DNA of 64,000 bases from Candidatus Kerfeldbacteria bacterium (GCA_016182495.1 JACPGK010000008.1:2870-66869), one strand, 5' to 3'. Counted from the first letter of the stretch, positions 45,505 to 62,565 are shown. A program made the numbers and translations. The notes: generated by a model from the letters alone, not told the origin.

Positions 45505-46873
45505 TATTTGGCTAGTAAGCGGTGAATTGATTAGTCGAGCCTTGGCCTTTATTGTAGTAGTGCGAGTCGCTAATTATCTTGGTGCTACCGCCTATGGTGA
45601 ATTGAGTTATGTATTAGCGATGGCTAGTGTATTAGTTATCATCGCTGATTTTGGTTTAAGTACTTTTGTGGTTACGCACGTATCACGCCATGATGATGAT
45701 CGCAGTATCTGGTTGAGTCAAGTATTCATCATAAAAGGTTTGCTCGGTATCGGCATGGTACTGTTAGCAGTAGTGGTTGGCCTAGTTTTGCCCAATGTAT
45801 CGTTGCTGTTGATGGTGTTGGCGGCTGGTGCCATTTGGCTCAACAACTCGCGGATGTTTATTGAAGCCTGTTTCCGAGCTTATCAACGTATGCCATTGGA
45901 AACATTCACAAAAATACTGGCCGCTGTTATCAGTCTGATCATTATTTCTCTTGGCGTATATTGGCAGACGAATGTACTAGGTTTAATTATCACCTACGTC
46001 ATCGCCGCGGTATTGGGTACCACTGCTGCCGGATTGGTGTTAGTATTGAAAGTCACTCGCCTACAGTTCGTGTGGTCAAAAAAAAGCTTTCAGCAAATTA
46101 TTATGGCCAGTTGGCCATTTGCCATCAGTATCGCTTGCAATTTTTTATTTAATTACGAAGACGCTGCTTTACTTGGTATATTTAAACACACAACGGCCTT
46201 AGGCTGGTATACCGCAGCCTATAAACCTATTTTTGTCATCACAGCCTTGGCTGGTATGATTATTAATGCTTTTTTACCAACCATTGTCACTGCCTATCAA
46301 CAAAACAACACTACTTGGCGAACCACCATTCAACAATTGTTCGCTACCAATATCGCTTTAGCCCTGCCACTAGCTGCTGGCGGTACTATCATTGCTCAAC
46401 CGTTGATTGGACTACTGTTTAAAGCAGATTTTGCCCCAGCCGCTTTGGCTTTTCAGATATTAATTTGGGGTACTGCTACAATTTATCTATGGGCCGTGTT
46501 TGGCAATAGCTTACAAGCCATTGGTCAAGAATTAATCTACACCCGTGCCTTTGGTTGGGGGGTATTATTAAATACCGGGCTTAATCTGGTGCTGATTCCC
46601 ACCTGGAGTTTGTATGGCGCAGCCCTGGCCACAGTAATAACCCAATTATTTTTACTAGGTTATTTGTATTATTTTTTCCGCAAACATATCAAAGTACCGG
46701 TGTGGTTATATAGTTGGCGGCCACTGATAGCCACTGCAGTAATGGTAGTGGTGCTGCAATTAGTACCGGCTGATTTGTGGTGGCAAATTGGATTAGGTGT
46801 GATAACGTACGTTGTGGTACTGTACTGTGTAGGTGGTTTAACTCCAATGCTATGGCCAAAGTCGCCGTCTTAA
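45488..46873 (+). CDS. Wzx-like oligosaccharide flippase (MOP superfamily)
   Basis: It is about 460 aa with 12-14 TM helices and the polysaccharide-biosynthesis-protein pattern. Confidence 0.75.
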   Translation: MNKWSSIWLVSGELISRALAFIVVVRVANYLGATAYGELSYVLAMASVLVIIADFGLSTFVVTHVSRHDDDRSIWLSQVFIIKGLLGIGMVLLAVVVGLVLPNVSLLLMVLAAGAIWLNNSRMFIEACFRAYQRMPLETFTKILAAVISLIIISLGVYWQTNVLGLIITYVIAAVLGTTAAGLVLVLKVTRLQFVWSKKSFQQIIMASWPFAISIACNFLFNYEDAALLGIFKHTTALGWYTAAYKPIFVITALAGMIINAFLPTIVTAYQQNNTTWRTTIQQLFATNIALALPLAAGGTIIAQPLIGLLFKADFAPAALAFQILIWGTATIYLWAVFGNSLQAIGQELIYTRAFGWGVLLNTGLNLVLIPTWSLYGAALATVITQLFLLGYLYYFFRKHIKVPVWLYSWRPLIATAVMVVVLQLVPADLWWQIGLGVITYVVVLYCVGGLTPMLWPKSPS

Positions 46874-48589: not shown

Positions 48590-49490
48590 TATTTTAATTT
48601 TATCGTGGAATGCCCCGCGGCATATTACCGCCTGCTTAGATAGTTTGATGGCGGCCACTGCCACTGGCGACGTTGAAATTATTGTGATCGATAACGCCTC
48701 AAGTAATCAGCTGGCTCATACACTGCGGCAGCGTTATCCAGCGATCCGCCTAGTGTGTAATCAAACGAATGTTGGCTACGCCTTGGGTAATAATCAAGCT
48801 TACCAATTAGCTCGCGGCCACTATAGTATGTTACTCAATCAAGATACGGTGGTAACGCCAGCAACGGTGCAGCAACTGATCAGCTTTTTAGATAGTCATC
48901 CTGGCTATGCTGCTGTCACACCAGTACTGCGTAATCCTGATGGCAGCCTGCAGTACTACATGCATCGCCGTTGGCCTACAGTTACTGGCCTACTATTGGC
49001 GTTGCTGCATAAACGCTGGCCTCGCTTTCAACCCAAATTGGTGCAACGCTATCTGTATTTAGATCAAACTTGGCAGCAAGATTTTGATATCGAACAAGCG
49101 GCCGGTGCCTGCCTAATGCTGCGACGTTCGGCCATTGTAGAACTAGGTGATTTGTTCGATGTCCGCCATTTTCCACTGTACTATAATGATGTTGATTTAT
49201 GTTATCGCTTAGCCCAACATCATCAAACTATCCGCTGCTTAACCACGGCCTCAATTGTACATGATAAAGGCACTAGTGTGCGCACCCTACCAGGAACCTT
49301 CAATGCGTTAGAATACGCCTACGCCTCGCTGTGGTTTTTTAAAAAGCATGGCCAGTGGTTTGATTTTTGGCTGTTACGTTTAGCCTATATTACCCTATTT
49401 ACTATCCTAGTGTTGTTTCGACCAGCGTATTATAAAGCCTGGCTGACAGCCGTTACCCTGAAGTATTACGGAATATTTCCGGTAAAATGA
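48570..49490 (+). CDS. GT2 glycosyltransferase
   Basis: It carries MSTPRLSILILSWNA...IIVIDNASSN, which is GT-A. The track ORF starts at 48555. Confidence 0.7.
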   Translation: MSTPRLSILILSWNAPRHITACLDSLMAATATGDVEIIVIDNASSNQLAHTLRQRYPAIRLVCNQTNVGYALGNNQAYQLARGHYSMLLNQDTVVTPATVQQLISFLDSHPGYAAVTPVLRNPDGSLQYYMHRRWPTVTGLLLALLHKRWPRFQPKLVQRYLYLDQTWQQDFDIEQAAGACLMLRRSAIVELGDLFDVRHFPLYYNDVDLCYRLAQHHQTIRCLTTASIVHDKGTSVRTLPGTFNALEYAYASLWFFKKHGQWFDFWLLRLAYITLFTILVLFRPAYYKAWLTAVTLKYYGIFPVK

Positions 49491-50947
49491 TATACCACCA
49501 CCAAAGCATCATTAAACTCGGGATGCTTGTGAAAATATTTTTTGGCATATAGTTTAATATCTTCGCGTATATGACGCTGATTGGGTTTGTTATAAATCAG
49601 CCACCCCCCGTGCTGACCAGACCGAGCTAAATCTTTAAAATCCTGTAACGATAAACTCTTATACCCACCTAATTTATACAGCGGCACAGATCGATTGGGC
49701 CAATAATAAAACCGGGGACCTTGAATTAACACAATCTCACCGGGTTGAATTTTTTCAGCCACGGCTTGGTAAACGCTACGCATATCAGGGTAGCCTAATT
49801 GGCTAGCCGATTGATCAGCTAACGCCTGACCAAATACCCCTGGTAAGGTGAGAACGGGACCAGTAATAATAAAGGTAGCCGCTACTACTACAGTTGCTAG
49901 CCAGCGCCAGCGCCGTAACTGTCGCCACACCAGTTGCAGTACCCAATACCAGCCGGTAGCGACCACTACATACACCAACGGCACAATAAAGCCAATGTAC
50001 CGTTGCGCTTCCCAGCGATGACTGAAAAATACAAAGTATGTCAGCACGACAATTACAATCATTGCGGCCATACCAGTAAAACTACGCCCAGTACGACTGA
50101 TCACACACCCCAATACAAACCAACCAGCTGCTAACCACGGCAGTAGCCAACTCGAAAATAACTGGGTAGCATACGTCCAGTGCGGTTGTTCACGTATAAT
50201 GACTGCATCCAGCGGCAAAAATCTCCACCATAGTTGATCAAGTGTGATGAGGCTAGCCACCAGCAGCAGCCCCAACCCAGTGGCCCAAGCCCAGGCAATA
50301 TCTTGAACGTGTCGCTGCCCTAAAAACAGTATGCCCCGACACAGTACATATACTCCGATGCCAGCTAGTAAGGCGAGCGTTAATTCTTTGAACACTAACC
50401 AATGCACTATGGTACTTACTATAAATCCACCCAGGTATATATAGCGCTGCCGACGCTGTGACCAGGCTGACAAAAATTGATACAAGCAATACACCATCAA
50501 AGTACTGAACACAATCACCATGGTATACATTCGCACATAGCGTGATAACCCAATCATCAAAGCATCAAAAGTGACTAACCAACTAGTCAATAGCGCAATC
50601 CACGGATTACCAGTCACTTGGCGCACTATAAAAAAAAGTACTGGTACTAAGGCTACGCCCCACAGCAAGGCTGGTAAGCGAGCGGCGGCTTCATTGATAC
50701 CAAACGCTTGCATACTAACAACCACCTGCCAAATAAATACAGCTGCCCGAGTATAGGGCTTAGCCACAGTAGCATGGTAAAAATCATAGCGGGCGTACTG
50801 GCCAGTGGTGATCAATCCGACGGCTGTTTCGAATTGTAAATACTCATCATGATAAAAATTAACCGCTCCTAAATTGACGGCTCGTAACCATAATGCCAAG
50901 CTGGTAATAAAGATAATGGCCAATGTTTGCCCAGATAGACTTTTCAT
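49466..50947 (-). CDS. GT-C fold membrane glycosyltransferase (ArnT/PMT-like, GT39/GT83-type)
   Basis: It is 493 aa and polytopic. The first extracytoplasmic loop carries the acidic HDE motif (FYHDEYLQFE) characteristic of polyprenyl-P-sugar-dependent GT-C enzymes. Confidence 0.65.
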   Translation of the reverse strand: MKSLSGQTLAIIFITSLALWLRAVNLGAVNFYHDEYLQFETAVGLITTGQYARYDFYHATVAKPYTRAAVFIWQVVVSMQAFGINEAAARLPALLWGVALVPVLFFIVRQVTGNPWIALLTSWLVTFDALMIGLSRYVRMYTMVIVFSTLMVYCLYQFLSAWSQRRQRYIYLGGFIVSTIVHWLVFKELTLALLAGIGVYVLCRGILFLGQRHVQDIAWAWATGLGLLLVASLITLDQLWWRFLPLDAVIIREQPHWTYATQLFSSWLLPWLAAGWFVLGCVISRTGRSFTGMAAMIVIVVLTYFVFFSHRWEAQRYIGFIVPLVYVVVATGWYWVLQLVWRQLRRWRWLATVVVAATFIITGPVLTLPGVFGQALADQSASQLGYPDMRSVYQAVAEKIQPGEIVLIQGPRFYYWPNRSVPLYKLGGYKSLSLQDFKDLARSGQHGGWLIYNKPNQRHIREDIKLYAKKYFHKHPEFNDALVVVYHFTGNIP

Positions 50948-50988
50948 GACTTTTCAAGTATAATCGACAAGGTTATTTTACTCAAGCT

Positions 50989-52584
50989 ATGGCAAATAAA
51001 GCAGTCATTATTGGATTAGATGGTGCTACCTGGCAATTGTTCGATACTCTGCTGGCCGCTGGCATCATGCCTAATCTACAACGCATCATTCGCGGCGGTA
51101 CGCGGGCGGTGTTACGTTCCACCATGCCGCCGTACACTGCGCCAGCCTGGACCACCTTTGCTACCGGTGTCAACCCAGGCAAGCATGGCTGTTACGATTT
51201 TTTATTACCAACCGACAATTTGGAAAATTTTGATTTATGTAACAGTAACCATATTCGTACTGCTACCATCTATGAATTACTGCATCAGGCTGGCAAACGA
51301 TCAATCTTAATTAATTTACCAAATAGTTATCCGCCCAAGCTATCTAGTCCAACCATTACTGATATGCTGACCGTGGGAGATAATTGCGTTTTTCCGGAAA
51401 CTTTAAAAGCTCGCTATCCTGAATTACGGCGTTATCGGCTAGCACCCGATGAATCACTACAGGTCAAAGGTAAGCTCACCGAATATATTGATGATATTAT
51501 TGCGGTAGAGCGCGATCATATGGCTGTTGTCAAAACGTTGTGGCAGCATGAACCCTGGGATATGTTTTTTTATCTGTTTTCATCAACTGATTGGATTTCA
51601 CATGCCATGTTTAATCAGTTGTTGGAATTGCATCCTAAGGCTATGGAATTGTTCAAATTTATTGATGACCAGTTGGGTTGGTTTTGTGATCAGTTGCCGC
51701 CTGATGCCAATTTATACATTTTGTCCGATCATGGTTTTAAAGTGTACCACCATACTTTTTACTTTAATAAATGGCTTGAACAACAAGGCTACCTGGTTAC
51801 TCGCCCGGCGGCGGCTGATAGTTTTCACCAAAATATTAGCAAACAAGATGATCAACGCAGCAGTTTACAACAGCATAAGCGCTGGCATATTGGTATTAAT
51901 CAAACTACCTTGCACTGGCTAAGCCAGGTAAAACCAATTGAACGAGCGGCTCGCTGGCTATACCATCATGTTGCCAAACCGTTTTTACCAATCCGGTTTA
52001 GTTTGGATGTGACGATTGATTTCAGTAAAACCAAAGTCTGTTTTCCCAAAGGTCGTACCATGACCGCCATTTACATTAATGATGGTCGTAAATATCGTCA
52101 CGGACAACCCTTCACTGAAGCTGATTACTTGCAGTTGCGCGCGGCTGTGGCTAAAAAATTAGCCGCTGTCAAAGGGCCAGATGGCCAACCAGTTACTCCG
52201 CGAGTGTATACCAAAGAAGAAATTTATGGCACAACAGTACCAGAGCGTTGCCCCGATTTATTTTATGAATTTGGTGACTATTGGTTTGTCGGTCAATTTC
52301 ATTCTAGTGAATTATTTGTTAAGGAATTATCCAATAAACATGACCCGTTCGGTATGTTTGTAGCCTATGGGCCCACCATTAAAGCTGGCGCTCAATTACC
52401 CGAGCAACCGATCGCTGCGGTCACAGCGACAGTACTGCATGATTTGCAACAACCACTCCCACAGTATTTCGATGCCAAGGTGATGGATATTTTTACCCAA
52501 CCACAGCCAGTGCGTTACAGTAATCGAGCATTGGTGAATGAACATCAGGCTGTAACTGAACTAATCAATGAATTAGTCGTATGA
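50989..52584 (+). CDS. alkaline-phosphatase-superfamily protein, type I phosphodiesterase/nucleotide pyrophosphatase-like (paralog 1 of 3)
   Basis: The N-terminus VIIGLDGATW supplies the metal-ligand Asp. The candidate nucleophile is the Thr/Ser of T(A/V)PAWTTFATG. SDHGF and TDWISH are metal-ligand blocks. The protein is 531 aa. Confidence 0.75.
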   Translation: MANKAVIIGLDGATWQLFDTLLAAGIMPNLQRIIRGGTRAVLRSTMPPYTAPAWTTFATGVNPGKHGCYDFLLPTDNLENFDLCNSNHIRTATIYELLHQAGKRSILINLPNSYPPKLSSPTITDMLTVGDNCVFPETLKARYPELRRYRLAPDESLQVKGKLTEYIDDIIAVERDHMAVVKTLWQHEPWDMFFYLFSSTDWISHAMFNQLLELHPKAMELFKFIDDQLGWFCDQLPPDANLYILSDHGFKVYHHTFYFNKWLEQQGYLVTRPAAADSFHQNISKQDDQRSSLQQHKRWHIGINQTTLHWLSQVKPIERAARWLYHHVAKPFLPIRFSLDVTIDFSKTKVCFPKGRTMTAIYINDGRKYRHGQPFTEADYLQLRAAVAKKLAAVKGPDGQPVTPRVYTKEEIYGTTVPERCPDLFYEFGDYWFVGQFHSSELFVKELSNKHDPFGMFVAYGPTIKAGAQLPEQPIAAVTATVLHDLQQPLPQYFDAKVMDIFTQPQPVRYSNRALVNEHQAVTELINELVV

Positions 52585-54188
52585 CCAAAGCTGTTATTAT
52601 TGGTTTAGATGGTGCTACTTGGCGCTTACTTGATCCCCTGCTGCAGCAAGGTCGTTTACCAAATTTGCAGTATCTGATTGAGCATGGTGTTCGTCGCACG
52701 CTAATTTCAACCCGCCCCCCAGTAACGGTACCGGCTTGGACCACTTTTGCCACTGGAGTGCACCCTGGTAAACATGGCTGTTACGATTTTTTTCTACCGG
52801 GAAAAAGTATCCGCGACTTTCGACCAGCCACTAGCCAAGAAATTAAAGTACCAACGTTATACGAATTACTGCACGATCAAGGCAAAAAAGTAATTTTAAT
52901 GAACCTGCCCAATTCGTATCCACCGCGCGTACCAGCGATGACTATGGTATCCGATTTCATGACCATTGGCGATCAAGCCGTTTTTCCCGCCAGCCTGTTA
53001 GAAAAATATCCGGTGCTTAAACGTTATCGCTTATCGCCCGATGAGCGCCTAAAATTAACGACCGATAACGATGCATATATTCAACACATTATTGATTTAG
53101 AAAAAGATCGTTTAGCTGGCATGAAGGAATTATTTATTCATGAACCTTGGGATATATTCTTCTTTTTGTTTTCCTCAACTGATTGGGTATCGCATTTAGT
53201 ATTTTACGATATGCTGACACAGCATCATCCAACCGCCTTGCAAGTGTTTGATGTGGTAGATGAATTTTTTGGTTGGCTGCGACAACAATTACCAGCCGAA
53301 GCTAATTTATATATTATGTCCGATCACGGTTTTACCTATTATACTGAACTGTTTTATATTAATCGCTGGCTGGAACAACAAGGCTACTTGGTGACTCGAT
53401 CTGGTGCCGGACAATTAGAACAAGATGCTACCGCTCGGCGGCGCAATTTGGCAGCGGCGCGAAGCCAGCGCAGGCGTTGGCGAATTTCAAAACGATGGCT
53501 GAATATATTATTTTTTCATCCAGTGATTGAACGAACCATGAAGTGGTGTTACCATCATATTGTGAAACCATTTTTTCCGGTGCATATCACTGTTGATGTG
53601 GGCATTGATTTAGATAAAACCAAAGTGTGTTTTCCGCGCGGTAGTATGTTACAAACCTTGTACCTCAACTATCAAGGTAATTTTAAAGAGGGCCTCATTA
53701 CCGATCGGACAGAATACGATCGTGTACGGCAAGAGGTGAAAGAAAAATTAGAAGCTCTGTACACACCGTCTGGTAAGCGCGTCACCGAGCATGTCTATAC
53801 CAAAGAAGAATTGTACGGTAACCAGCCACCAACGCCATCGCCGGATTTACATTGTGTCACCAAAGATGTTTGGATTGTTGGCCATTTACATTCAAAAGCT
53901 ATTTTTGAACAGGCAATATCGAATAAACACGACGAATTTGGAATTTTTATCGCCTATGGGCCGGATATCGTGGCTGGTGAACAACTGGCCGAAGCCAATA
54001 TTGCTGATATCGCGCCTACCATTTTGCATCAATTCAACAGTTTGATTCCAAGCTATACCGATGGTCGGGTGCTGTTGGATATTTTTCAAAACCAGGCTGA
54101 ACCAGCCCAGCGACCAGTGCGTTTGAGTCAAATTGAACGGTCTGAAAAAACTCAACTCAATGAATTAGTCGACAATTTGGTAATTTAA
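52581..54188 (+). CDS. alkaline-phosphatase-superfamily protein, phosphodiesterase/NPP-like (paralog 2 of 3)
   Basis: It is roughly half identical by eye to paralog 1 across the whole length. The same IGLDGATW / PAWTTF / NLPNSYPP / HEPWD / STDWVSH / SDHGF blocks are present. Its start overlaps the stop of paralog 1. Confidence 0.75.
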   Translation: MTKAVIIGLDGATWRLLDPLLQQGRLPNLQYLIEHGVRRTLISTRPPVTVPAWTTFATGVHPGKHGCYDFFLPGKSIRDFRPATSQEIKVPTLYELLHDQGKKVILMNLPNSYPPRVPAMTMVSDFMTIGDQAVFPASLLEKYPVLKRYRLSPDERLKLTTDNDAYIQHIIDLEKDRLAGMKELFIHEPWDIFFFLFSSTDWVSHLVFYDMLTQHHPTALQVFDVVDEFFGWLRQQLPAEANLYIMSDHGFTYYTELFYINRWLEQQGYLVTRSGAGQLEQDATARRRNLAAARSQRRRWRISKRWLNILFFHPVIERTMKWCYHHIVKPFFPVHITVDVGIDLDKTKVCFPRGSMLQTLYLNYQGNFKEGLITDRTEYDRVRQEVKEKLEALYTPSGKRVTEHVYTKEELYGNQPPTPSPDLHCVTKDVWIVGHLHSKAIFEQAISNKHDEFGIFIAYGPDIVAGEQLAEANIADIAPTILHQFNSLIPSYTDGRVLLDIFQNQAEPAQRPVRLSQIERSEKTQLNELVDNLVI

Positions 54189-54190
54189 TT

Positions 54191-55786
54191 ATGGCCCAAC
54201 CAAAAGTAATCGTGATTGGTTTAGATGGTTCCAGTTGGGAACTCGTCAACCAATTGCGCGCTGAACAACAACTGCCTGCCCTGGAAAAAATGATCAATCA
54301 GGGTATGAGCAGTACGATGTACTCGACTCATCCAGCTCATAGCGCTCCGGCCTGGACCAGTTTTGTCACCGGCGTACCACCCACCGAGCATGGTTGTTTA
54401 GATTTCTTGGTGGTACATAATGATATTACCGATTTAGACATTATTGATAGCACCAAAATCAAACAGGAAACTATCTATGAAGCCATGGTACGACATGGTC
54501 GCCGGCCAATTTTAATCAATTTACCGAATACCTTTCCGCCAAAATTAAAAGATGCCATTACCATTACCAGTTTAATGACACGCGGTGAAAAATTTATTTT
54601 TCCGGCCAGCTTGAAACAGCGCTATCCCGAATTGCAGCACTATCGCCTATCACCTAATGCCAAGTTACGCTCAAAAGATCAGTTCGATGCCTACGTTCAA
54701 GATCTCTGTCAGCTAGAACGCGATCGCATCGCCGCAGCTAAACAATTACTGCTGCACGAACCTTGGGATTTTTTCTTTTATCTTTGCTCTGGCACCGATT
54801 GGGTATCGCACGTGGTGTATGATCAAGCGGTGCAACACCACTATCAACCGGCTTTAGAGATGTGGCGCCTGATGGATGAATTTATTGGTTGGGTGATGCA
54901 ACAGCTGGACGATGACACTATTATATACGTCATATCGGATCATGGTTTTAAAGTGTACGATTCTATTTTTTATGTTAACCGCTGGCTGGAAGAACACGGC
55001 TATCTAGCCACCACCGCCGGTACCAGTTCGTTTCAACAAACCCATACCAAACTGTCACGTGAAGTAGCCAAAGTACAACAACGACAGTTCCAGTTCAATG
55101 TTGGTAAACGACTGCGTAATGTACTGCGTCATTCGCCACGGTTAGAACAAGGTGCTAAATGGTCGTATCATCATATTATTAAACGGTTTGTACCGGTGAA
55201 TGTGAAGATTAATTTACAACTTGATCTCACCAAAACCCAAGTGGGCTTTCCACGCGGCTCGATGGCCAGTTTGTTGTATGTCAACGATCAAGTTCGGTTT
55301 CGTCATGGCATTGTGCCAGCCAACCAACGGGCCAGCCTAACCCAGCAACTCCAGCAACAATTGCAAGCCATTACTGATCCTGGTGGTCAACCAGCCATTG
55401 CCCAGGTATACACCACTGAACAACTGTATGGTAACCGCGCTATGGCCATTGCCCCTGATTTATTTTTACAGCCAAACCAGCATTATTTATCAGGCTCATT
55501 ACATTCGGCAGCTTTGTTTGAAAACACTTCCAAAAATTATCATGATGATCAAGGGATGTTTTTAGCCTATGGCAAAGCCATTGCTCATCAACCGATGTCA
55601 GATAGTTCTATTATGCAAATGGCCCCAACCATTATGCATAGTTTGGGCTTACCGCTATTGCCACAATTCAGCGCTACCGTGATGGACATTTTTGCTTCTA
55701 CCAGTTCGCTACATCAACCAGCCCAGTACGAAGGCTCATCTGAACAAGCTGACCTACGTACTATCATTAACACTATCGAGTTGTAA
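54191..55786 (+). CDS. alkaline-phosphatase-superfamily protein, phosphodiesterase/NPP-like (paralog 3 of 3; Ser at nucleophile position)
   Basis: The same motif set is present but more diverged (IGLDGSSW, SAPAWTSF, CSGTDWVSH, SDHGF). It is colinear with paralogs 1 and 2. Confidence 0.7.
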   Translation: MAQPKVIVIGLDGSSWELVNQLRAEQQLPALEKMINQGMSSTMYSTHPAHSAPAWTSFVTGVPPTEHGCLDFLVVHNDITDLDIIDSTKIKQETIYEAMVRHGRRPILINLPNTFPPKLKDAITITSLMTRGEKFIFPASLKQRYPELQHYRLSPNAKLRSKDQFDAYVQDLCQLERDRIAAAKQLLLHEPWDFFFYLCSGTDWVSHVVYDQAVQHHYQPALEMWRLMDEFIGWVMQQLDDDTIIYVISDHGFKVYDSIFYVNRWLEEHGYLATTAGTSSFQQTHTKLSREVAKVQQRQFQFNVGKRLRNVLRHSPRLEQGAKWSYHHIIKRFVPVNVKINLQLDLTKTQVGFPRGSMASLLYVNDQVRFRHGIVPANQRASLTQQLQQQLQAITDPGGQPAIAQVYTTEQLYGNRAMAIAPDLFLQPNQHYLSGSLHSAALFENTSKNYHDDQGMFLAYGKAIAHQPMSDSSIMQMAPTIMHSLGLPLLPQFSATVMDIFASTSSLHQPAQYEGSSEQADLRTIINTIEL

Positions 55787-55790
55787 TTAT

Positions 55791-57260
55791 ATGTCGCAGG
55801 CTCGCCAATTGTTACAGGTGATTGCCCGTTTAGTGACATCGCGTTTACTCTATCGCATTCTGGTAGCACTATCAATTATCATCGCTTCTAATTATCTCAT
55901 TACCATTCCCGAACTGTCGGATATTTTTGATGTGGCCAGTGCGGCGGTCAGTATTATTATGATCGGCAGCGAAGTGGGCATGAGTATGGTGTTGATGCGG
56001 CATGGCGCCGAACAAAATCGTGAAAAATTACGGCCGTACTATGGCACCGCTTTAGTAATTGAATCACTGGCTTGGCTGGGTTTGTTTGCCAGTATTATTG
56101 GTGGTTACGCCGTGTTCAATGGTTTCACAACCATGTTTTGGTTGCTGGCAATTTTGGGTGTCAACCAAGCGATCATTCAGTATCGAGTGGTCATTCGATC
56201 AATCTATCGTAGTTTACGTGATAATGAAACCATTACCTATATTGAAATAATTGATGGGGCCTGCAAATTGCTGGGTGTTTGGCTGATTACGCATTGGATC
56301 AGCAATCCAATCACTGGGGCTTACTGGATTGCCTTGCTCTATACCATCACCACCATCATATTTATTGGGCTGTACGGTTGGCATTCATTTAGTTTGGTGA
56401 AACCGCTGATCCAGTGGTCATTACGTAGCGGTATGATTAAAGAAGGGGTGTGGTATAGCTTGCAAGGCTTGATTATGACCGTGTATTTTGAAATTGATAA
56501 ATTAATCATGCGCTTGTTTCAAAGCACCGGCTGGGCGGATATCGCGGCTGGTGATATTGCTCGTTATGGTGCGGCCGCTCGCTTGATTGTGTTTTTTTTA
56601 GTATTTCATCGCATTGGTTTACAAGTAATCACACCTGATTTATATGCTTCGTTTGCTACGAATAAAGATCGTTACCGGCGGATTGTTCAATGTTCTACGC
56701 GCTACATGGGAGCCTTTGGCATAGCTCTAGGCACTGGCTTGATTGTGCTAGCCGATGATATTATGCACCTGTTGTATCGAGCTGAATTTTGGAGCGCCAT
56801 TCCAGCCTTGCAACTATTTGGCGCTTTTTTAATTATTCGATTTATTGGCATTACCTCCAGTCAAGTGTTGGCTACTACCGGTAATCAACCCTTACGCACT
56901 CGCCAAGAAGGCTATGCCGTGGTGGTAAATATTGTGCTCGATATTATTCTTATTCCCCGTTACGGCTTTATGGGTGGAGCCATGGCTACCTTAGCCACTG
57001 AATTACTATTTCAAAGTATCTTTTTTGTGATGACCCGCCGGTTAATTCAGGATTCCATCAGTCGCAGTCTGTGGCAAATTGTGCCGGCTCTGGCTGCCGG
57101 GTTGGTGATGGGTATGGTGATATGGTTTTTAAAACCGCTGGTGCTACTTTGGCTACTGCCGTTGATTGGCGCGGCCGTATTTGTACTGTTATTATGGTTG
57201 TTTCGTTTTTTCAATGAAGCAGATTTCAAGTTACTCAAAAAAACTCCGACTGTCATTTGA
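55791..57260 (+). CDS. second Wzx-like flippase / polysaccharide biosynthesis membrane protein
   Basis: The ATG at 55791 (MSQARQLLQ...) was verified on the sequence. It is about 490 aa with 12+ TM helices. The track ORF begins upstream at 55692 inside the preceding gene. Confidence 0.7.
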   Translation: MSQARQLLQVIARLVTSRLLYRILVALSIIIASNYLITIPELSDIFDVASAAVSIIMIGSEVGMSMVLMRHGAEQNREKLRPYYGTALVIESLAWLGLFASIIGGYAVFNGFTTMFWLLAILGVNQAIIQYRVVIRSIYRSLRDNETITYIEIIDGACKLLGVWLITHWISNPITGAYWIALLYTITTIIFIGLYGWHSFSLVKPLIQWSLRSGMIKEGVWYSLQGLIMTVYFEIDKLIMRLFQSTGWADIAAGDIARYGAAARLIVFFLVFHRIGLQVITPDLYASFATNKDRYRRIVQCSTRYMGAFGIALGTGLIVLADDIMHLLYRAEFWSAIPALQLFGAFLIIRFIGITSSQVLATTGNQPLRTRQEGYAVVVNIVLDIILIPRYGFMGGAMATLATELLFQSIFFVMTRRLIQDSISRSLWQIVPALAAGLVMGMVIWFLKPLVLLWLLPLIGAAVFVLLLWLFRFFNEADFKLLKKTPTVI

Positions 57261-57322: not shown

Positions 57323-58535
57323 GATTAAAACCTATATTCGGCGCCCTGTCTATTGGCAAAAAATTGCTCCCTTTGTTGGTAAAGATATCATTAAGGTAAT
57401 TGTTGGCCAACGACGGGTAGGTAAAAGTTATTTTTTATTTCAGATCATGGACGAAATAAAAAAAACTAACCCCAAAGTTAATTTTATTTATCTTAACAAA
57501 GAATCAGAGGAATTTTCTGCTATCAAAACAGGTAAGGATTTGTTGGTTTTTGTCGCTAAAAAAGTTTCCCGTCGCCATAAAAATTGTATCTTTATTGATG
57601 AAATTCAAGAAATAGACGGTTTTGAAAAAGCGTTACGTCATTTGTCCGCTCAAGGTGGCTATGATATTTATTGTACTGGTTCTAATGCGCATATGTTATC
57701 TTCGGAAATTGCCACTGGTTTATCGGGACGTTATGTGGCAGTGACCATGCATAGTCTATCGTTCCCTGAATTCCTAATTTTTCACCAATTAAAAAAAGGT
57801 GAGGATACTTTATTTAAATATATTCGTTATGGCGGGCTGCCATATATCATTAATCTAGAATTAACCGATGAGGTTGTGTATGATTATTTAAAAAATATTT
57901 ATAACACCATTTTGCTTAAGGATGTAGTAGCTCGGTTCGGAGTGCGTAATATCAATTTTTTGGAACGATTGGTAGTGTATCTGGCTGATAATATCGGTAG
58001 TTTTGTGTCAGCTAAAAAAATTAGCGATTTTTTAAAATCCCAAAATATACGAATATCGCCTAATATCGTTCTCAATTATTTATCCTATTTAGTGGCTGCG
58101 TATTTTATCAGCCCAGTGAAAAGATCAGATATAAATGGTAAAAGAATTTTTGAAATCAATGAAAAATATTATTTTGCAGATCTAGGATTGCGCCAGGCGT
58201 TGATCGGTTATCGTCAGGTGGATATAGGAAAAATTTTAGAAAATCTAGTATATAATCACTTACAATTTTTAGAATATACTATTACCGTGGGGAAAAGTGG
58301 TGCCAAAGAAATTGATTTTATCTGTGAAAAAGCTGGAGAAAAACTATATATCCAAGTGGCTTATTTGCTTCCGGATGAAAAAGTCAAAGCCAGAGAATTT
58401 GGCAATCTGTTGCAGATAGCCAACAATTATCCTAAACTGGTAGTTTCTCTAGATGTCATGGCTGGCGGTAATTATCAGGGAATACACCATCTTCATCTGT
58501 TAGATTTTTTAACGAATAACCACTACCCCCTATAA
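57321..58535 (+). CDS. AAA+ ATPase of the AAA_14/DUF4143 (COG1373-like) family
   Basis: The Walker A is VGQRRVGKSY and the Walker B is CIFIDEIQ. The C-terminal DUF4143-like region has a restriction-endonuclease-like EIDFI...YIQVAY block. The gene is conspicuously AT-rich relative to both flanks. Confidence 0.75.
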   Translation: MIKTYIRRPVYWQKIAPFVGKDIIKVIVGQRRVGKSYFLFQIMDEIKKTNPKVNFIYLNKESEEFSAIKTGKDLLVFVAKKVSRRHKNCIFIDEIQEIDGFEKALRHLSAQGGYDIYCTGSNAHMLSSEIATGLSGRYVAVTMHSLSFPEFLIFHQLKKGEDTLFKYIRYGGLPYIINLELTDEVVYDYLKNIYNTILLKDVVARFGVRNINFLERLVVYLADNIGSFVSAKKISDFLKSQNIRISPNIVLNYLSYLVAAYFISPVKRSDINGKRIFEINEKYYFADLGLRQALIGYRQVDIGKILENLVYNHLQFLEYTITVGKSGAKEIDFICEKAGEKLYIQVAYLLPDEKVKAREFGNLLQIANNYPKLVVSLDVMAGGNYQGIHHLHLLDFLTNNHYPL

Positions 58536-60962
58536 AGCCGTAGTTGAGCTGCGGTTTGGTTTGTTCGATTGTCGGTACGTACTGATCAATTGTTTTAATA
58601 ATAAAACTGGGATGGGTAATGTTACCAGCCACAATACATAGTATTCCAGTTGCAATAGTACTCCCCACGATAATAAAAATGTAATCACATCAACCGTGCC
58701 AATGTGTAAGCCCGATTTTAACACAATCTCGGGTTTGCGCTCTTGTAAAAAAATACTTTTTTTGGCTTCCCGTAAATACCCAACTAATAAATTACCCAAC
58801 ATGGCGGCAAAGGCCAGATACACTATCCATACACTATGCCCCACGTAGCCAAACGCCAGGTCGGTAAATTCCATCGGTACCGGGGCCAGTGGTGCAAACC
58901 AATATAATTGCCAAGCCATTGCGCCAAACCATATAATTTCTTTCACCCGATCAGAAATACTATCAAACCAAATGCCAAACTTGCTGCCCCGCCCTAACAT
59001 GCGCGCCACTTCACCATCAGAACAATCAAAAGCAAACGACAATTGAATACACGTAAATGCCAGCACTCTACCCCACCAAGTGGGATACAATAACCCGACC
59101 GCTCCAATACCACCAACCACAAAAGAAATAATCGTTACATCCGGCGCGGTAATTCTAGGAAATAATTTTAATGAATAATACGTGAGGTACTTCGAAATCC
59201 GCCGGTAAATTAAACGACTAAATATACTGTCGTGCGGCTGTTGATATTGAATAATATCGTGTGGTGAAGTTGGTAATGGCACAAAATAGTAGTTAGTATG
59301 TATAGTATTTAGTATAAAATTATACGTGGCCACTGGTTCGAGTTGCGCTATATTCAATAACCGTTGTTCATCGGCATTAGCGCTGCCATCATACCACAGA
59401 TATAACTGATAGTCTGTAGTGAGCTCTCTCAAAAAACTATACACCTGATTCACCGGCGGTTTTTCTTTTGGCTTACGCGGAAATCGAATCACCCGAGCCG
59501 CACTATGGGTCATGATGGTTTCTGAAATACCGGCTTGCCAATCTCCTACCATCAGCAGCAAAGCATTGTTTGGTAACTGTTCGGCCATAGCTTTTAATTG
59601 ATGTAAATCATCTCGGGTAATAGCTTTATATACCGGATCAGCCTCACGATTATGTCGCTGTCGTTCGGCGATTGAAGGTTGTAACGACACAAAAAATGAT
59701 CCGATGAACACCATTACTAACGCAGTCCAACTCCAGCGTTGCAATTGCAGTTTTTGTTGCAACCATAGTACACCAGTAACACTGCCATAGGCCGCCAGTA
59801 AGGTAATTACCGGTACGGCTGGAATTAAATAGCGTGGATATGGATTGATCCAAGCACTAAACAACAAAAATAACGGCCCAAACCAAACTAGTAACATCAC
59901 AGCGGTAGATTTTTGTGCGCGCCATAATAGTATCAAACCAACTGCTGCTGCCAGTAAAAATAAGGGCCAAGTACTCACTGCAGTCAACACCTCCCAGTAC
60001 TGTTTTAACCCACCCACCCCGGGACGAAATTTTCCTTGATTGTTATATAAATTCTGTAGCTGTAACGACCGTACATGATCAAAATTCGAGGTAATGGCAA
60101 TGCGACTAATATCTTTGTCGCGAAATTTTTCTTTATGCAGAGTAATATTCACTGAATTCCATAATGATAGCGATCCAACGCACACTGCCCCAATCAAAAA
60201 TACGCCCACTACTTGATAGCGCTGGGCTGTGTTCCACTGCCGCCACCATTGCCAGCCAAGCACAATGAATACCCCCAATAAAATGCCACTGGTTTCTCGA
60301 ATATTAACGCTCATGCCATAGCTGGCTCCGGCGCCCAGCCATAACCCAAGCTGGCACCACCATCGTTTGGTTACGGGCAATAGTAATATCAGCCACAGCG
60401 CCAGCATGAAAAAAAATAATGCTGGTATTTCACGCATTGGTTGGGCTACGGCATAATTGGCATACAAACTAGCTAAGCCTAAACTTAAAGCGGCCATTAC
60501 AGCGCTGGCGCGTTGCAAGGCGGGTGGCAACTGAAATAACCGGAGCGCTAACAGATAAGTGAGCAGCACCACTCCCACCGCTAACCCTGGTTCCACATCA
60601 TACCAGGCTTCATCGCTGCCTGATATTTTTGCAACGCTATACAGCAACCAACCTAAACCAATCGGATAGCGCGAAGCAATCCAGCCAGTTGAAGAGATAA
60701 TTTCATGATGCGTCGGCGCCACAAATCGAGCAAATTTTTCATCGCCAAAATAGGTTAAGGCGCGTTGTACCAGGCTATCCTGGCTCACTAATGGTTCATC
60801 AGCCCACCACTGCCCGGCCGTATATAAGTAGCCAGGGGCATCATCCCCCCACGATCCCCAGGCATGACTGGTGATATAAAAAAAACCAAAAATCAACGTC
60901 AGTAGCGCTAGTATAATGCCATCGATTATCCACCACCATTTAGGCGAAGTAGCTGTGTTCAT
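58530..60962 (-). CDS. 810-aa polytopic membrane protein: GT-C-like N-terminal membrane domain fused to a C-terminal CDP-alcohol phosphatidyltransferase domain
   Basis: The C-terminus holds the complete signature D646-x2-D-G-x2-A-R-x8-G-x3-D-x3-D671 ([29 protein letters not shown], about nt 58950-59027) inside a 6-TM block. The N-terminal roughly 430 residues are 10+ TM helices with an acidic first loop ([13 protein letters not shown]). A roughly 170-aa soluble linker lies between them. The start overlaps the cysC stop (ATGA). Confidence 0.7.
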
Positions 60963-61567
60963 GCAGCCCGCAGTACGCCACGCTGTTGCAATTGGTGTAC
61001 CAATTCAGCTAGGGCTGGCTCGACCGTTTGGCGTTCGGTGTTAATTGTAATGTCAGGTGCAATGGGTGCTTCATAGGGCGCCGAAATGCCGGTAAATTCT
61101 GGAATAGTGCCAGCGCGAGCTTTGGCGTACAACCCTTTGGTATCACGCTGTTCACAAGTTGCCAACGAACACTCCACATACACTTCAATAAATTCGCCTG
61201 GCTCGACCATGGCTCGCACCAAATCGCGGTCGGCCTGGTAAGGAGAAATAAAAGCGGTCATAGCAATAGTGCCACTATCAACCAATAATTTAGCCACCTC
61301 GCCAATTCGACGAATATTTTCGGTACGATCAGCCGCCGAAAAACCTAAATCACTATTTAACCCATGCCGAATATTATCTCCATCTAGGCGATACACCCGA
61401 TAATTACGCTCAAACAAATATTGTTCTAAGGCAACCGATAAGGTTGATTTCCCCGAGCCTGATAAACCAGTAAACCATACAATACAACTAGTATGCTTGG
61501 CCTGATCACGACGTTGTTGTTTTGATACAGCACTATCATGCCACACAATATTGGTTGCTGCTATCAT
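60959..61567 (-). CDS. cysC: adenylyl-sulfate (APS) kinase
   Basis: It has the P-loop GLSGSGKST and the APS-kinase blocks ([21 protein letters not shown]). The protein is 202 aa. Confidence 0.9.
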
Positions 61568-62565
61568 ACTTGAATACTGGCTACCTTGGCTTGTAATTTT
61601 GGAAATATCTCATTCAATTGCTCACGGGGAATAATAATACCGACCACTTCTTCTTTGCCGCCAGCATTTAAACCAAGGTCGCGAGCAAATTGAATCAGTT
61701 GACGCATATCGTACTGCAATTGGCGGCGCCGAATATAACACGTATACTGATCAGCTTTTAATTGGCGGGTAAAAATAATTTTATCTGGGTACTGGCGAGA
61801 GATATTACGCGTCACGTGCGATAAAATATTCAGCGACGTATGCAAATCTAAAAACAACACTTGATTACTCAAGGCTTGTGGAGCTTGTTCCAATAAACGA
61901 TCAATTTCTCCCCCAATCTGCTGCAGATTATTTTCTAGTTTTACATCGGTCAATAACGCTAGTGGATCGTGGCGTAATAATTGAATGGTATCATGCATGC
62001 CACTATAATCATCAACCATATAGTTCGAATCAATCAACCGGCGCAAGGTGAGTAATTGAGCAAAGCTAATATTATACTGTTGCATCATTTCTGCTACCCA
62101 GGGATAGTACTGTGTATCTTGTTGAATTGATTCTTCTCGATCCCCCACCATGGCAATGGCCGCCAACAAATTATTGGCTAAGCCCAGGGTGGCGGTGATA
62201 AATGAGGCGCAAGCTGGATGAGGTTGATTAAAATAATGAACCTGGCGATACGGCGTTTGGTGATGGTGATCAAAAATGTAGGTTTGATCAGGCCAAACTC
62301 GCGCCAAGCCATTAACCGTTTGTTCAGGAAAATTAATATCACAGGTAATAGCAAATTGATACTGGGCGTCACTAAGCTGTTGCAACTGCTGGGCCGTTAA
62401 ATAGTAATTGGTAATCGTTGGAACAAAGGTAGTCAGTTTTTTTTCTGGAAACCGTTCAGCGAGATAATTGAATAGCACGGCGGCGGAACATAGCCCATCA
62501 GTATCCCAATGATGGATAATAACACCATGGCGTTGACTAGTAGTGAGGGTTTGAAAAGGATCCAT
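61564..62565 (-). CDS. DHH-family phosphoesterase (NrnA-like; candidate 3'-phosphoadenosine 5'-phosphate phosphatase)
   Basis: DHH motifs are present (HHWDTDG, IFDHHHQ) with a DHHA1-like C-terminus. It sits between sat and cysC with 4-nt overlaps at both junctions. Confidence 0.65.

What the first reader, a model, noticed from the sequence alone, without database searches (positions are those of the whole stretch)
50989..55786. Three tandem, overlapping paralogs of an alkaline-phosphatase-superfamily (type I phosphodiesterase/NPP-like) enzyme inside the glycan locus
Three colinear genes of 531, 535 and 531 aa are packed with a 4-nt overlap and a 2-nt gap. They share the blocks IGLDG(A/S)(T/S)W, (T/S)xPAWT(T/S)F, HGC(Y/L)DF, NLPN(S/T)(Y/F)PP, HEPWD, TDW(I/V)SH, SDHGF and a conserved C-terminal tail. 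These blocks are the metal-ligand and nucleophile positions of the PF01663-type branch of the AlkP superfamily, so all three look catalytically competent. Paralog 3 has Ser where paralogs 1 and 2 have Thr at the putative nucleophile. Enzymes of this fold hydrolyse or transfer phosphodiester-linked groups (nucleotide pyrophosphates, phospho-alcohol head groups, sulfate esters in the related sulfatases). Three diverged copies sit between two flippases and next to a CDP-alcohol phosphotransferase and a PAPS module. This suggests a set of substrate-specialised enzymes that add, trim or remodel phospho- or sulfo-substituents on the exported glycan, or that recycle the nucleotide by-products.
Basis: partly seen in the sequence, partly recalled or inferred. 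Interest (0 to 1): 0.55.

Follow-up and report, generated by a model that had tools for sequence, protein, structure and literature searches.

The report
Three tandem AlkP-fold glycan-locus enzymes
Three neighbouring paralogous genes in the cell-surface glycan locus of a Candidatus Kerfeldbacteria (CPR) bacterium encode soluble enzymes that appear catalytically intact and belong to a very large, uncharacterised branch of the alkaline-phosphatase superfamily; this branch travels with lipid-carrier glycosylation genes and its sister branches travel with sulfate-activation genes, but its chemistry is still unknown.

Summary
Three colinear ORFs (531, 535 and 531 aa; 4-nt overlap, 2-nt gap) are 39-48% identical paralogs. 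All pass PF01663 and keep every bimetal ligand. The nucleophile is Thr in paralogs 1 and 2 and Ser in paralog 3. An AlphaFold model (pLDDT 92) matches NPP and PhnA structures. The proteins have no signal peptide or TM segment, so they are probably cytoplasmic.

What is new is the context. The genes are NCBI 'alkaline phosphatase family protein' entries of a Kerfeldbacteria MAG. The triplet, flanked by a GT-C and a Wzx-like gene, is conserved with one-to-one orthologs in at least five other CPR genomes. The family has more than 5,000 50%-identity clusters in bacteria and archaea, is multi-copy in 32 of 80 loci, and sits beside ArnC/GtrB-type GT2, flippase-like and GT-C genes. It has a ~190-aa cap with no PDB match, and Asp-Phe where NPPs have the phosphoryl-binding Asn. 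Sister subclades lie between ATP sulfurylase and APS kinase and are sometimes fused to ATP sulfurylase.

Best reading (inference): cytoplasmic tailoring of an anionic ester group on lipid-linked glycan precursors. The group could be phosphate, phospho-alcohol or sulfate.

The parts
50989..52584 (+). Paralog 1 (531 aa; NCBI MBI2415386.1). Soluble AlkP/NPP-fold enzyme with Thr50 as nucleophile and metal ligands D11, D201, H205, D247, H248, H451.
   Evidence: ORF. PF01663 at E 4e-34. AF2 model pLDDT 92.4. Foldseek hits to Xac NPP, ENPPs and PhnA at E 1e-16 to 1e-13. Ligand alignment to PhnA and NPP. Accession.
52581..54188 (+). Paralog 2 (535 aa; MBI2415387.1). Thr nucleophile. Its start overlaps the stop of paralog 1 (ATGA).
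54191..55786 (+). Paralog 3 (531 aa; MBI2415388.1). Ser nucleophile, fixed in its orthogroup. Also gives a weak PF00884 hit.
50936..50964 (+). Best sigma-70-like match (TAGACT-17-TATAAT, 10 of 12) in the 41-nt divergent intergenic region upstream of paralog 1. This is a consensus match only.
   Evidence: The total number of such sites is not above the shuffled expectation.
49466..50947 (-). Divergent GT-C-type (PMT/ArnT-like) polytopic glycosyltransferase, conserved next to the triplet in other CPR genomes.
   Evidence: PF02366 at E 3.5e-7. Nine hydrophobic segments. Synteny.
55791..57260 (+). Wzx-like multi-TM protein (489 aa from the ATG) directly downstream, conserved after the triplet.
   Evidence: No Pfam hit, but it matches by BLAST the genes that follow the triplet in relatives, which cluster with PF01943 flippases. 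Called as 489 aa in L001.
43464..44387 (+). ArnC/GtrB/DPMS-type GT2 (polyprenyl-phosphate glycosyltransferase). This is the family's most frequent neighbour class elsewhere.
   Evidence: PF00535. ArnC 9bhc at E 2e-43, GtrB 5ekp at 3e-30, DPMS at 8e-19. Cluster GT2a is present in 32 of 80 loci.
45467..46873 (+). Wzx-type flippase (PF01943).
58530..60962 (-). GT-C-like membrane protein fused to a CDP-alcohol phosphotransferase (810 aa). Relatives, and another assembly of the same population, have two separate genes.
   Evidence: PF01066 at residues 610-734. Intact DxxDGxxARx8GxxxDxxxD motif. A 47-nt difference from L001.
60959..61567 (-). APS kinase.
   Evidence: PF01583 at E 2e-68.
61564..62565 (-). 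DHH-family protein, probably a pAp phosphatase.
   Evidence: PF01368. DHHA1 in the ortholog. A non-canonical PAP phosphatase is reported in the abstract of PMC10322725; that it belongs to the DHH family is my recollection.
62571..63719 (-). ATP sulfurylase (PUA_2 + ATP-sulfurylase).

Best explanation
The three genes encode cytoplasmic, two-metal AlkP/NPP-fold enzymes that work through a covalent intermediate on Thr50 (paralogs 1 and 2) or Ser50 (paralog 3). I propose that they tailor an anionic ester substituent on polyprenyl-phosphate-linked sugar or glycan intermediates at the inner face of the membrane. This would happen after an ArnC/GtrB-type GT2 has loaded the lipid carrier and before Wzx or PF03706-type flipping and GT-C transfer to the cell-surface polymer. 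The substituent is most likely a phosphate or phospho-alcohol ester. The three co-translated paralogs would either serve three different positions or substrates or form a Thr-type/Ser-type hetero-oligomer. Shown here: paralogy, fold, intact catalytic residues, soluble nature, conserved synteny and family-wide gene neighbourhoods. Inferred: the substrate class, the group handled, the direction (add or remove) and any oligomer.
For: Catalytic core: PF01663 is passed. The ligands align with the PhnA and NPP motifs TDYVQH, DHG and the nucleophile Thr. In 120 relatives D11 is kept in 117, D201 in 119, H205 in 117, D247 and H248 in all 120 and H451 in 116, and the nucleophile is Thr in 88, Ser in 31 and Cys in 1. 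The model is confident and its best structural matches are NPP and PhnA. Location: no signal peptide or TM segment. Context of the trio's H66/D70-type subfamily in 80 genome loci from CPR, Chloroflexota, Acidobacteriota and archaea: ArnC-like GT2 in 32 loci, often adjacent; GT4 in 28; Wzx in 25; PF03706 flippase-like in 14; several GT-C clusters. Typical operons are GT2-AlkP-GT-C and PF03706-AlkP-GT2-AlkP-...-GT-C. GT2a is a full-length ArnC/GtrB homolog. The triplet with its GT-C and Wzx flanks is conserved with 1:1:1 orthologs in L004/L008, L006/L007, L009, L010 and L013. Complex substrate recognition: a ~190-aa cap that is confidently folded and carries many invariant residues (N260, D344, Y362, N364, D423), and 33 positions fixed within but differing between the three orthogroups, many of them in the cap. 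Paralogs acting together: copies are translationally coupled; Thr-type and Ser-type copies co-occur in most multi-copy loci; P0128 is a natural two-domain fusion with Thr in the N-terminal domain and Ser in the C-terminal domain. Precedents for the logic: cytoplasmic phosphatases act on polyprenyl-P-ribose-5-P before flipping and GT-C transfer (PMC11127046); the AlkP-superfamily glycerol-phosphate transferase GacH sits in the GacI/J/K/L cluster (PMC9574508). In single-copy Kerfeldbacteria the ortholog closes an operon of Wzx, cytidylyltransferase, G1P-dehydrogenase-like and CDP-alcohol phosphotransferase genes.
Against: No substrate, donor or product is known for any family member. No informative annotation or paper was found. 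ArnC-type GT2s use ordinary NDP-sugars, so there is no obvious phosphate to trim. A soluble AlkP-fold phospho-alcohol transferase using CDP-alcohols has no precedent. In the window the ArnC-like GT2 is 6.6 kb upstream rather than adjacent. The canonical phosphoryl-binding Asn of NPP and PhnA is replaced by an invariant Asp-Phe, which is unusual for binding a phosphoryl group. The neighbouring PAPS operon has no identified consumer, which favours the sulfate rival.
Confidence: 0.4

Rival explanations
1. They are PAPS-dependent sulfotransferases built on the AlkP fold. Each paralog would sulfate a different position of the lipid-linked or nascent glycan in the cytoplasm, using PAPS from the adjacent ATPS-DHH-APSK operon.
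For: No canonical sulfotransferase was found among the Pfam-scanned ORFs of at least 150 aa in the window, and none in the 7.8 kb beyond it, although a complete PAPS-making and pAp-removing operon is present. Sister subclades of the same family (about 465 aa, L66/G70/R72 signature, and a Ser-type H/G form) lie within two genes of ATP sulfurylase or APS kinase in 41 of 80 and 7 of 8 cases. They occur as ATPS-AlkP-APSK(-PHP-AlkP) operons and as PUA_2 + ATP-sulfurylase + PF01663 fusion proteins. The regex found almost no PSB-type sulfotransferase motif in those loci. DHH or PHP putative pAp phosphatases co-occur, so the AlkP is unlikely to be the pAp phosphatase. H/D-type members sit near PAPS genes in six non-CPR loci (L025, L052, L059, L074, L084, L085). 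Multiple paralogs fit regiospecific sulfation.
Against: No AlkP-superfamily sulfotransferase is known (own knowledge), and two-metal Thr sites are very poor at sulfuryl transfer. The trio's own H/D-type subfamily is rarely next to PAPS genes (3 of 107 within two genes) and differs from the PAPS-coupled clade exactly at H66 and D70. Canonical sulfotransferases are present in four H/D-type loci, although unrelated genes separate them from the AlkP operon in three of the four (L033, L047, L076; in L065 only a GT4 intervenes). In the sister clade, a pyrophosphatase that pulls the ATP sulfurylase reaction would explain the fusion equally well.
Confidence: 0.2
2. They are ordinary nucleotide pyrophosphatases or phosphodiesterases that hydrolyse nucleotide by-products (UDP, dTDP, CMP-linked species, APS or PAPS) or salvage nucleotides for a CPR cell that cannot make them. 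They would sit in the glycan locus only to relieve product inhibition.
For: The best fold matches are NPPs, including NPP3 complexes with UDP-GlcNAc and Ap4A. CPR bacteria depend on salvage (own knowledge). The locus contains many nucleotide-sugar-using glycosyltransferases.
Against: Three diverged copies retained for a long time, each with orthogroup-specific residues in a large conserved cap, are hard to justify for small soluble nucleotides. The family is equally common in large-genome Chloroflexota in tight GT2-AlkP-GT-C operons. The Asn that binds the nucleotide phosphate in NPPs is missing.
Confidence: 0.12
3. They are AlkP-fold phosphomutases, like cofactor-independent phosphoglycerate mutase or phosphopentomutase, that supply sugar-1-phosphates for the nucleotide-sugar pathways of the locus.
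For: They are soluble, cytoplasmic, two-metal enzymes with a Ser/Thr nucleophile and an inserted cap. JGI labels them 'phosphohydrolase/phosphomutase'. RmlA and other NDP-sugar genes are nearby. GHMP-kinase and SIS genes occur near the sister clade.
Against: No sequence or fold match to iPGM or phosphopentomutase ranked among the top hits. The cap has no PDB match. The neighbourhood is dominated by membrane-step genes rather than sugar-activation genes.
Confidence: 0.07

Closest known systems
Bacterial and animal NPPs (Xanthomonas NPP 2gsn/7n1s; ENPP1-7), Pfam PF01663
   Same: Same AlkP core fold, same two-metal ligand set (Asp, Asp/His, Asp/His, His) and Thr nucleophile. Foldseek E about 1e-16 with TM 0.64-0.70 normalised to the NPP.
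   Different: The trio is cytoplasmic rather than secreted. Only profile positions 1-250 of 342 match. It has about 190 extra residues forming a cap with no PDB match. The phosphoryl-binding Asn is replaced by an invariant Asp-Phe. Sequence identity is 12-15%. The genomic context is lipid-linked glycosylation.
Phosphonoacetate hydrolase PhnA (1ei6, 3szy)
   Same: Best sequence match in the PDB (E 2e-9 to 6e-9, N-terminal 100 residues). It is cytoplasmic. The TDYVQH and DHG motifs align.
   Different: The NCBIfam equivalog score is 21-50 bits against a cut-off of 407.6. There are no phosphonate genes in the locus. The cap region gives only a non-significant fold match (E 2.5).
GacH/SccH, LtaS and EptA-type phospho-alcohol transferases (PF00884 branch), within the streptococcal GacI/J/K/L + GacH rhamnose-polysaccharide cluster
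   Same: An AlkP-superfamily enzyme encoded with a GtrB-like GT2, a Wzx flippase, a GT-C and rhamnose genes, which adds an anionic group to a wall glycan (PMC9574508). The window also carries rml genes.
   Different: Those enzymes are membrane-anchored, act outside the cell, use phospholipid donors and belong to PF00884. The trio is soluble, has no TM segment and belongs to PF01663.
GPI ethanolamine-phosphate transferases PIG-N, PIG-G and PIG-O (Mcd4, Gpi7, Gpi13)
   Same: These carry a PF01663-type catalytic domain. Three paralogs each modify a different sugar of one lipid-linked glycan (own knowledge). This is the best precedent for three paralogs serving three positions.
   Different: They are eukaryotic, multi-TM and ER-lumenal, and use phosphatidylethanolamine as donor. 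No homology beyond the shared domain was tested here.
ArnD, and the polyprenyl-phosphoribose 5-phosphate phosphatases (HAD-type PRP domain; Rv3807c)
   Same: Same pathway position: a cytoplasmic tailoring step on a polyprenyl-phosphate-linked sugar between the lipid-loading transferase and flipping and GT-C transfer (PMC11127046; ArnD from own knowledge).
   Different: Unrelated folds (deformylase, HAD, PAP2). Their lipid-loading step uses PRPP or UDP-Ara4FN.

Membership tests
PF01663 type I phosphodiesterase / nucleotide pyrophosphatase (NPP branch of the AlkP superfamily) | Passes the Pfam gathering score | tested here: met
   119, 129 and 110 bits against a cut-off of 23. Only profile positions 1-250 of 342 are covered.
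PF01663 type I phosphodiesterase / nucleotide pyrophosphatase (NPP branch of the AlkP superfamily) | Two-metal ligand set (Asp; Asp+His; Asp+His; His) | tested here: met
   D11, D201/H205, D247/H248 and H451 are invariant in the trio and in 65 relatives, and kept in at least 116 of 120 in the wider set. They align with the PhnA and NPP motifs. Superposition in 3D coordinates could not be inspected.
PF01663 type I phosphodiesterase / nucleotide pyrophosphatase (NPP branch of the AlkP superfamily) | Thr nucleophile after the second beta-strand | tested here: met
   T50 in paralogs 1 and 2 aligns with the PhnA and NPP nucleophile Thr. Paralog 3 has Ser, as in alkaline phosphatase.
PF01663 type I phosphodiesterase / nucleotide pyrophosphatase (NPP branch of the AlkP superfamily) | Conserved Asn that binds the phosphoryl oxygen (HGxxxN) | tested here: not met
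   The family has HGC(Y/L)DF. Depending on the alignment, the Asn is replaced by D70 (PhnA alignment) or F71 (Xac NPP alignment). D70 is kept in 104 of 120 members.
PF01663 type I phosphodiesterase / nucleotide pyrophosphatase (NPP branch of the AlkP superfamily) | AlkP core fold | tested here: met
   AF2 pLDDT 92.4. Foldseek probability 1.00 to Xac NPP, ENPP1/3/5/6/7 and PhnA.
PF01663 type I phosphodiesterase / nucleotide pyrophosphatase (NPP branch of the AlkP superfamily) | Phosphodiesterase or pyrophosphatase activity | not testable with these tools
   Needs an enzyme assay.
Phosphonoacetate hydrolase PhnA (TIGR02335 equivalog) | Reaches the NCBIfam equivalog cut-off | tested here: not met
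   21-50 bits against 407.55.
LtaS/EptA/GacH-type phospho-alcohol transferases (PF00884) | N-terminal multi-TM anchor with an extracytoplasmic catalytic domain | tested here: not met
   No hydrophobic segment in any paralog. PF00884 is hit only weakly, and only by paralog 3.
Canonical PAPS-dependent sulfotransferases (PF00685, PF13469) | P-loop-like 5'-PSB motif and the sulfotransferase fold | tested here: not met
   No Pfam hit. The fold is AlkP. The motif regex hits only cluster c28, which is a true PF13469 protein.
Gtr/Arn-like lipid-linked extracytoplasmic glycosylation module (the context, not the enzymes themselves) | Polyprenyl-phosphate GT2 + flippase + GT-C encoded together | tested here: met
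   In the window: an ArnC/GtrB-like GT2, Wzx and a GT-C. Family-wide recurrence.

The most novel reading that the evidence does not exclude
This AlkP-fold family, including the three paralogs here, is a previously unrecognised class of PAPS-using sulfuryl-transfer enzymes, or obligate Thr-type/Ser-type hetero-oligomers that couple PAPS chemistry to lipid-linked sugars. That would explain the thousands of ATP sulfurylase-AlkP-APS kinase operons and fusions that show no canonical sulfotransferase nearby. It would also make the Kerfeldbacteria trio a set of three regiospecific glycan sulfotransferases.
Probability: 0.15. Interest if true: 0.85.

Novelty: new variant of a known kind. Interest (0 to 1): 0.55.

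Why it matters
The trio is an entry point to a very large enzyme family whose function nobody has tested. There are about 5,250 50%-identity clusters at E <= 1e-30, spread over bacteria and archaea. The family has one of the clearest genomic contexts available for an unknown: it is a recurrent fourth component of ArnC/GtrB-type GT2 + flippase + GT-C glycosylation modules, and sister clades are embedded in, or fused to, the sulfate-activation pathway. Working out its chemistry would add a new tailoring step to lipid-linked glycan assembly. It might also identify the missing PAPS consumer in many genomes. For CPR bacteria, which have tiny genomes and live attached to hosts, keeping three copies suggests the decorated surface glycan matters for their lifestyle.

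Tried and rejected
(1) NCBIfam gave only sub-threshold PhnA, PafA and arylsulfatase fragments and no functional name.

(2) Eight literature searches (COG3379; PF01663 + glycosyltransferase; AlkP superfamily + sulfotransferase; Patescibacteria + sulfotransferase; ATPS/APSK + AlkP; NPP + ArnT; CPR + sulfated; sat/cysC + phosphodiesterase) found no paper on this family.

(3) Source annotations for 240 listed relatives are all generic.

(4) I looked for a canonical sulfotransferase. None was found among the Pfam-scanned ORFs of at least 150 aa in the window, or in the 7.8 kb beyond it. A true PF13469 protein (c28) occurs in only 4 of 80 loci. In three of them unrelated genes (HSP20, M1 peptidase) separate it from the AlkP operon, so I did not count it as a partner.

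(5) Longer family members were checked for informative fusions. Apart from ATP sulfurylase fusions and one AlkP-AlkP tandem fusion, the extensions have no Pfam domain, and some may be artefacts of my ORF calling.

(6) Other recurrent Chloroflexota neighbours (GNAT, Dam methylase, ABC transporter, response regulator) look incidental.

(7) The cap domain was modelled alone and searched against the PDB, with no significant match.

(8) I considered the 563-aa protein after APS kinase as a hidden sulfotransferase. It is a multi-TM, GT-C-like protein, so I rejected it.

(9) I considered the CDP-alcohol phosphotransferase as a PAPS user. Its CDP-binding motif is canonical, so this is unlikely.


Full report
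OBSERVATION. They encode 531, 535 and 531 aa, with an ATGA overlap and a 2-nt gap. Paralog 1 is 48% identical to paralog 2 and 39% identical to paralog 3, and every quoted motif block is present. In a database search with paralog 1, the other two return at E 1e-162 and 6e-129. The proteins are identical to NCBI MBI2415386.1, MBI2415387.1 and MBI2415388.1, annotated 'alkaline phosphatase family protein', from a 74.5-kb contig of a Candidatus Kerfeldbacteria (Patescibacteria/CPR) MAG.

FAMILY AND CATALYTIC CORE. All three pass PF01663 (110-129 bits against a cut-off of 23), but only over profile positions 1-250 of 342. Paralog 3 also touches PF00884 weakly. NCBIfam gives only sub-threshold PhnA matches. 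Profile searches of PDB sequences find PhnA (E about 2e-9 to 6e-9) and Xanthomonas NPP or ENPPs. In those alignments T50 sits on the nucleophile Thr, TDW(I/V)SH sits on TDYVQH, and SDHGF sits on the DHG metal motif. An AlphaFold model built from a 65-sequence alignment is confident (pLDDT 92.4, pTM 0.91). Its best PDB matches are Xac NPP, ENPP1/3/5/6/7 and PhnA (E 1e-16 to 1e-13, probability 1.0). D11, D201, H205, D247, H248 and H451 are invariant in the trio and in 65 relatives and are kept in at least 116 of 120 more distant members. The nucleophile is Thr in paralogs 1 and 2 and Ser in paralog 3, and this is fixed in each orthogroup across 5-6 genomes. None of the proteins has a hydrophobic segment, and the first beta-strand begins at residue 4-5, so they are soluble and most likely cytoplasmic.

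HOW THEY DIFFER FROM ORDINARY NPPs. First, the Asn that binds the phosphoryl oxygen in NPP and PhnA (HGxxxN) is absent. The family has HGC(Y/L)DF, with D70 or F71 at that position depending on the alignment, and D70 is kept in 104 of 120 members. Second, about 190 residues (roughly 252-445) form a family-specific cap rich in invariant residues (N260, D344, Y362, N364, D423). Modelled alone, the cap folds confidently (pLDDT 88, pTM 0.82) but has no significant match in the PDB (best E 2.5). Third, the family is very large and unnamed. A profile search of 1.84 billion cluster representatives gives 22,738 hits at E <= 1e-3 and 5,254 at E <= 1e-30, mostly 500-550 aa.

THE TRIPLICATION. A neighbour-joining tree places paralogs 1, 2 and 3 in three orthogroups, each with orthologs in loci L008, L009, L010 and L013. 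Paralogs 1 and 2 are sisters, paralog 3 branches outside them, and a single-copy Kerfeldbacteria clade is the outgroup. Gene tables of related contigs show the same block: a divergent GT-C, three AlkP genes, then a ~490-aa Wzx-like membrane protein. Thirty-three positions are fixed within each orthogroup but differ between them, many in the cap (354-369, 425-437, 448-450). This is the pattern expected for retained, functionally diverged copies.

FAMILY-WIDE GENE NEIGHBOURHOOD. Eighty loci from species-representative genomes were fetched. They include CPR, many Chloroflexota, Acidobacteriota, Caldithrix, and archaea such as Woesearchaeota, Thermoplasmatota and Aciduliprofundum. The family is multi-copy in 32 of 80 loci. 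Unbiased clustering of neighbour ORFs gives these recurrent partners: a ~330-aa GT2 (32 loci), GT4 (28), Wzx (25), an LPG_synthase_TM/PF03706 flippase-like protein (14), CDP-alcohol phosphotransferase (9) and several GT-C clusters. The GT2 is a full-length homolog of ArnC (E 1e-43 to 1e-59), GtrB and Dol-P-Man synthase, so it is a polyprenyl-phosphate glycosyltransferase. Typical Chloroflexota operons read GT2-AlkP-GT-C or PF03706-AlkP-GT2-AlkP-...-GT-C. The family is thus a recurrent extra component of Arn/Gtr-like modules. In those modules a sugar is loaded on the lipid carrier in the cytoplasm, flipped, and transferred outside by a GT-C. The window has the same parts: an ArnC-like GT2 (43464-44387), two Wzx-like genes, GT-C genes, several other GTs and rml genes.

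THE SULFATE LINK. Downstream and convergent to the trio lies an operon of ATP sulfurylase, a DHH protein (probably a pAp phosphatase), APS kinase, a GT-C-like membrane protein and a CDP-alcohol phosphotransferase. The abstract of PMC10322725 reports a non-canonical PAP phosphatase in a methanogen; my recollection is that it is DHH-derived. No canonical sulfotransferase is present among the window's Pfam-scanned ORFs of at least 150 aa or in the 7.8 kb beyond it. In other Kerfeldbacteria (L015, L016, L018) a shorter family member (~465 aa) sits inside that operon, between DHH and APS kinase. It groups with a Thermoanaerobaculum gene that directly precedes an APS kinase.

A metagenome scan with this subclade returned 80 loci, 34 with APS kinase and 37 with ATP sulfurylase. 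The usual orders are ATPS-AlkP-APSK or AlkP-APSK-ATPS, sometimes followed by a PHP-domain protein and a second, Ser-type AlkP. Fusion proteins with PUA_2, ATP-sulfurylase and PF01663 domains (822-929 aa) also occur.

Sorting members by active-site signature is important here. The PAPS-coupled clades have L66/G70/R72 (41 of 80 within two genes of a PAPS gene) or H66/G70 (7 of 8). The trio's H66/D70 type is within two genes of a PAPS gene in only 3 of 107 cases, and within the same 20-kb locus in 17 of 107, mostly CPR. The sulfate link is therefore strong for the sister clades and only circumstantial for the trio.

THR/SER PAIRING. In multi-copy loci a Thr-type and a Ser-type copy usually occur together. 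The combinations are ST in 16 loci, STT in 6 and TT in 10. Examples are T,T,S in the CPR trio, a Ser copy upstream and a Thr copy downstream of the GT2 in Chloroflexota, and T (L/G) plus S (H/G) in PAPS operons. P0128 is a natural 1,104-aa fusion of two family domains, with Thr in the N-terminal domain and Ser in the C-terminal domain. Together with the translational coupling in the window, this suggests the paralogs act as a hetero-oligomer or in consecutive steps.

INTERPRETATION. My best explanation (confidence about 0.4) is that these are cytoplasmic tailoring enzymes acting through a covalent Thr/Ser intermediate on an anionic ester of a lipid-linked sugar or glycan, before flipping and GT-C transfer. 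The ester is most probably a phosphate or phospho-alcohol.

Three precedents support the logic. Cytoplasmic phosphatases process polyprenyl-P-ribose-5-P in three-component pentofuranose systems (PMC11127046). The AlkP-superfamily glycerol-phosphate transferase GacH is encoded with GacI/J/K/L in streptococcal rhamnose-polysaccharide loci (PMC9574508). And, from my own knowledge, three PF01663-type GPI ethanolamine-phosphate transferases each serve one mannose. The single-copy Kerfeldbacteria ortholog closes an operon of Wzx, a cytidylyltransferase, a G1P-dehydrogenase-like enzyme and a CDP-alcohol phosphotransferase. That fits phospho-alcohol chemistry.

The main rival (about 0.2) is sulfuryl transfer from PAPS. 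It would give the orphan PAPS operon a consumer, but it has no precedent in this superfamily and rests mostly on sister clades. Simple nucleotide hydrolysis (about 0.12) and phosphomutase activity (about 0.07) fit the data less well. What is shown: paralogy, fold, intact site, solubility, synteny and neighbourhoods. What is inferred: substrate, group, direction and oligomeric state.

VERDICT. The genes are already annotated generically, so the finding is not a new gene. However, the subfamily is an uncharacterised variant of the NPP-type AlkP fold with a distinctive cap, an altered active-site residue and a strong, previously undescribed genomic association. Interest is moderate (0.55). The upside case, an AlkP-fold sulfuryl-transfer family, has a probability of about 0.15.

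Noticed in passing
window 58530-60962 (-), difference at about 59314/59315; L001 12232-12278: The 810-aa ORF fusing a GT-C-like protein to a CDP-alcohol phosphotransferase exists only because the window lacks 47 nt that are present in an otherwise 100% identical Logan assembly. There, and in all relatives, these are two genes (about 563 aa and 250 aa). The fusion is probably an assembly artefact or a strain-level deletion.
   Followed up: yes
L088-L167 (e.g. L095:1671-4262 +; L144; L162); L015:15891-17288 (-); L025:2079-3461 (+): A ~465-aa sister subclade of the family (L66/G70/R72 signature) sits between ATP sulfurylase and APS kinase in dozens of metagenome contigs. It also occurs fused to ATP sulfurylase (PUA_2 + ATP-sulfurylase + PF01663, 822-929 aa). 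It is often accompanied by a PHP or DHH putative pAp phosphatase and a second, Ser-type copy. Only one PSB-type sulfotransferase motif hit was found in those 80 loci. Its function is unknown; it could be a sulfotransferase, a pyrophosphatase or something else.
   Followed up: partly
L008-L167 multi-copy loci; P0128: Thr-nucleophile and Ser-nucleophile paralogs of the family co-occur in the same operon across phyla. One 1,104-aa protein is a natural Thr-domain + Ser-domain fusion. This hints at hetero-oligomers or two-step chemistry.
   Followed up: partly
L014-L018 (e.g. L015:4012-6641 +, then 9917-11614 +): Single-copy Kerfeldbacteria carry an operon of Wzx, an NTP_transferase, a Fe-ADH_2 (glycerol-1-phosphate dehydrogenase-like) enzyme, a CDP-alcohol phosphotransferase and an AlkP. 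This suggests a CDP-glycerol-type pathway feeding the same glycan system.
   Followed up: partly
window 2867-3418 (-): A CarS-like (CDP-archaeol synthase family, PF01864) gene lies in this CPR bacterium, next to gyrB.
   Followed up: no
window 9172-15834 (-): A 2,220-aa ORF was not analysed. Upstream at 942-2804 lies a 620-aa protein with InhA-like MAM, TIG and fn3 domains, which is probably a surface protein.
   Followed up: no
window 41910-43448 (-): A 512-aa protein with an N-terminal TM segment and no Pfam hit is conserved (cluster c32) upstream of the ArnC-like GT2 in three related CPR loci (L009-L011).
   Followed up: no
window 57321-58535 (+): An AAA_14/DUF4143 ATPase gene is inserted between the AlkP-Wzx block and the PAPS operon. 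It is absent at this position in several relatives, so it is probably not part of the system. A terminator-like hairpin follows at 58535-58557.
   Followed up: partly
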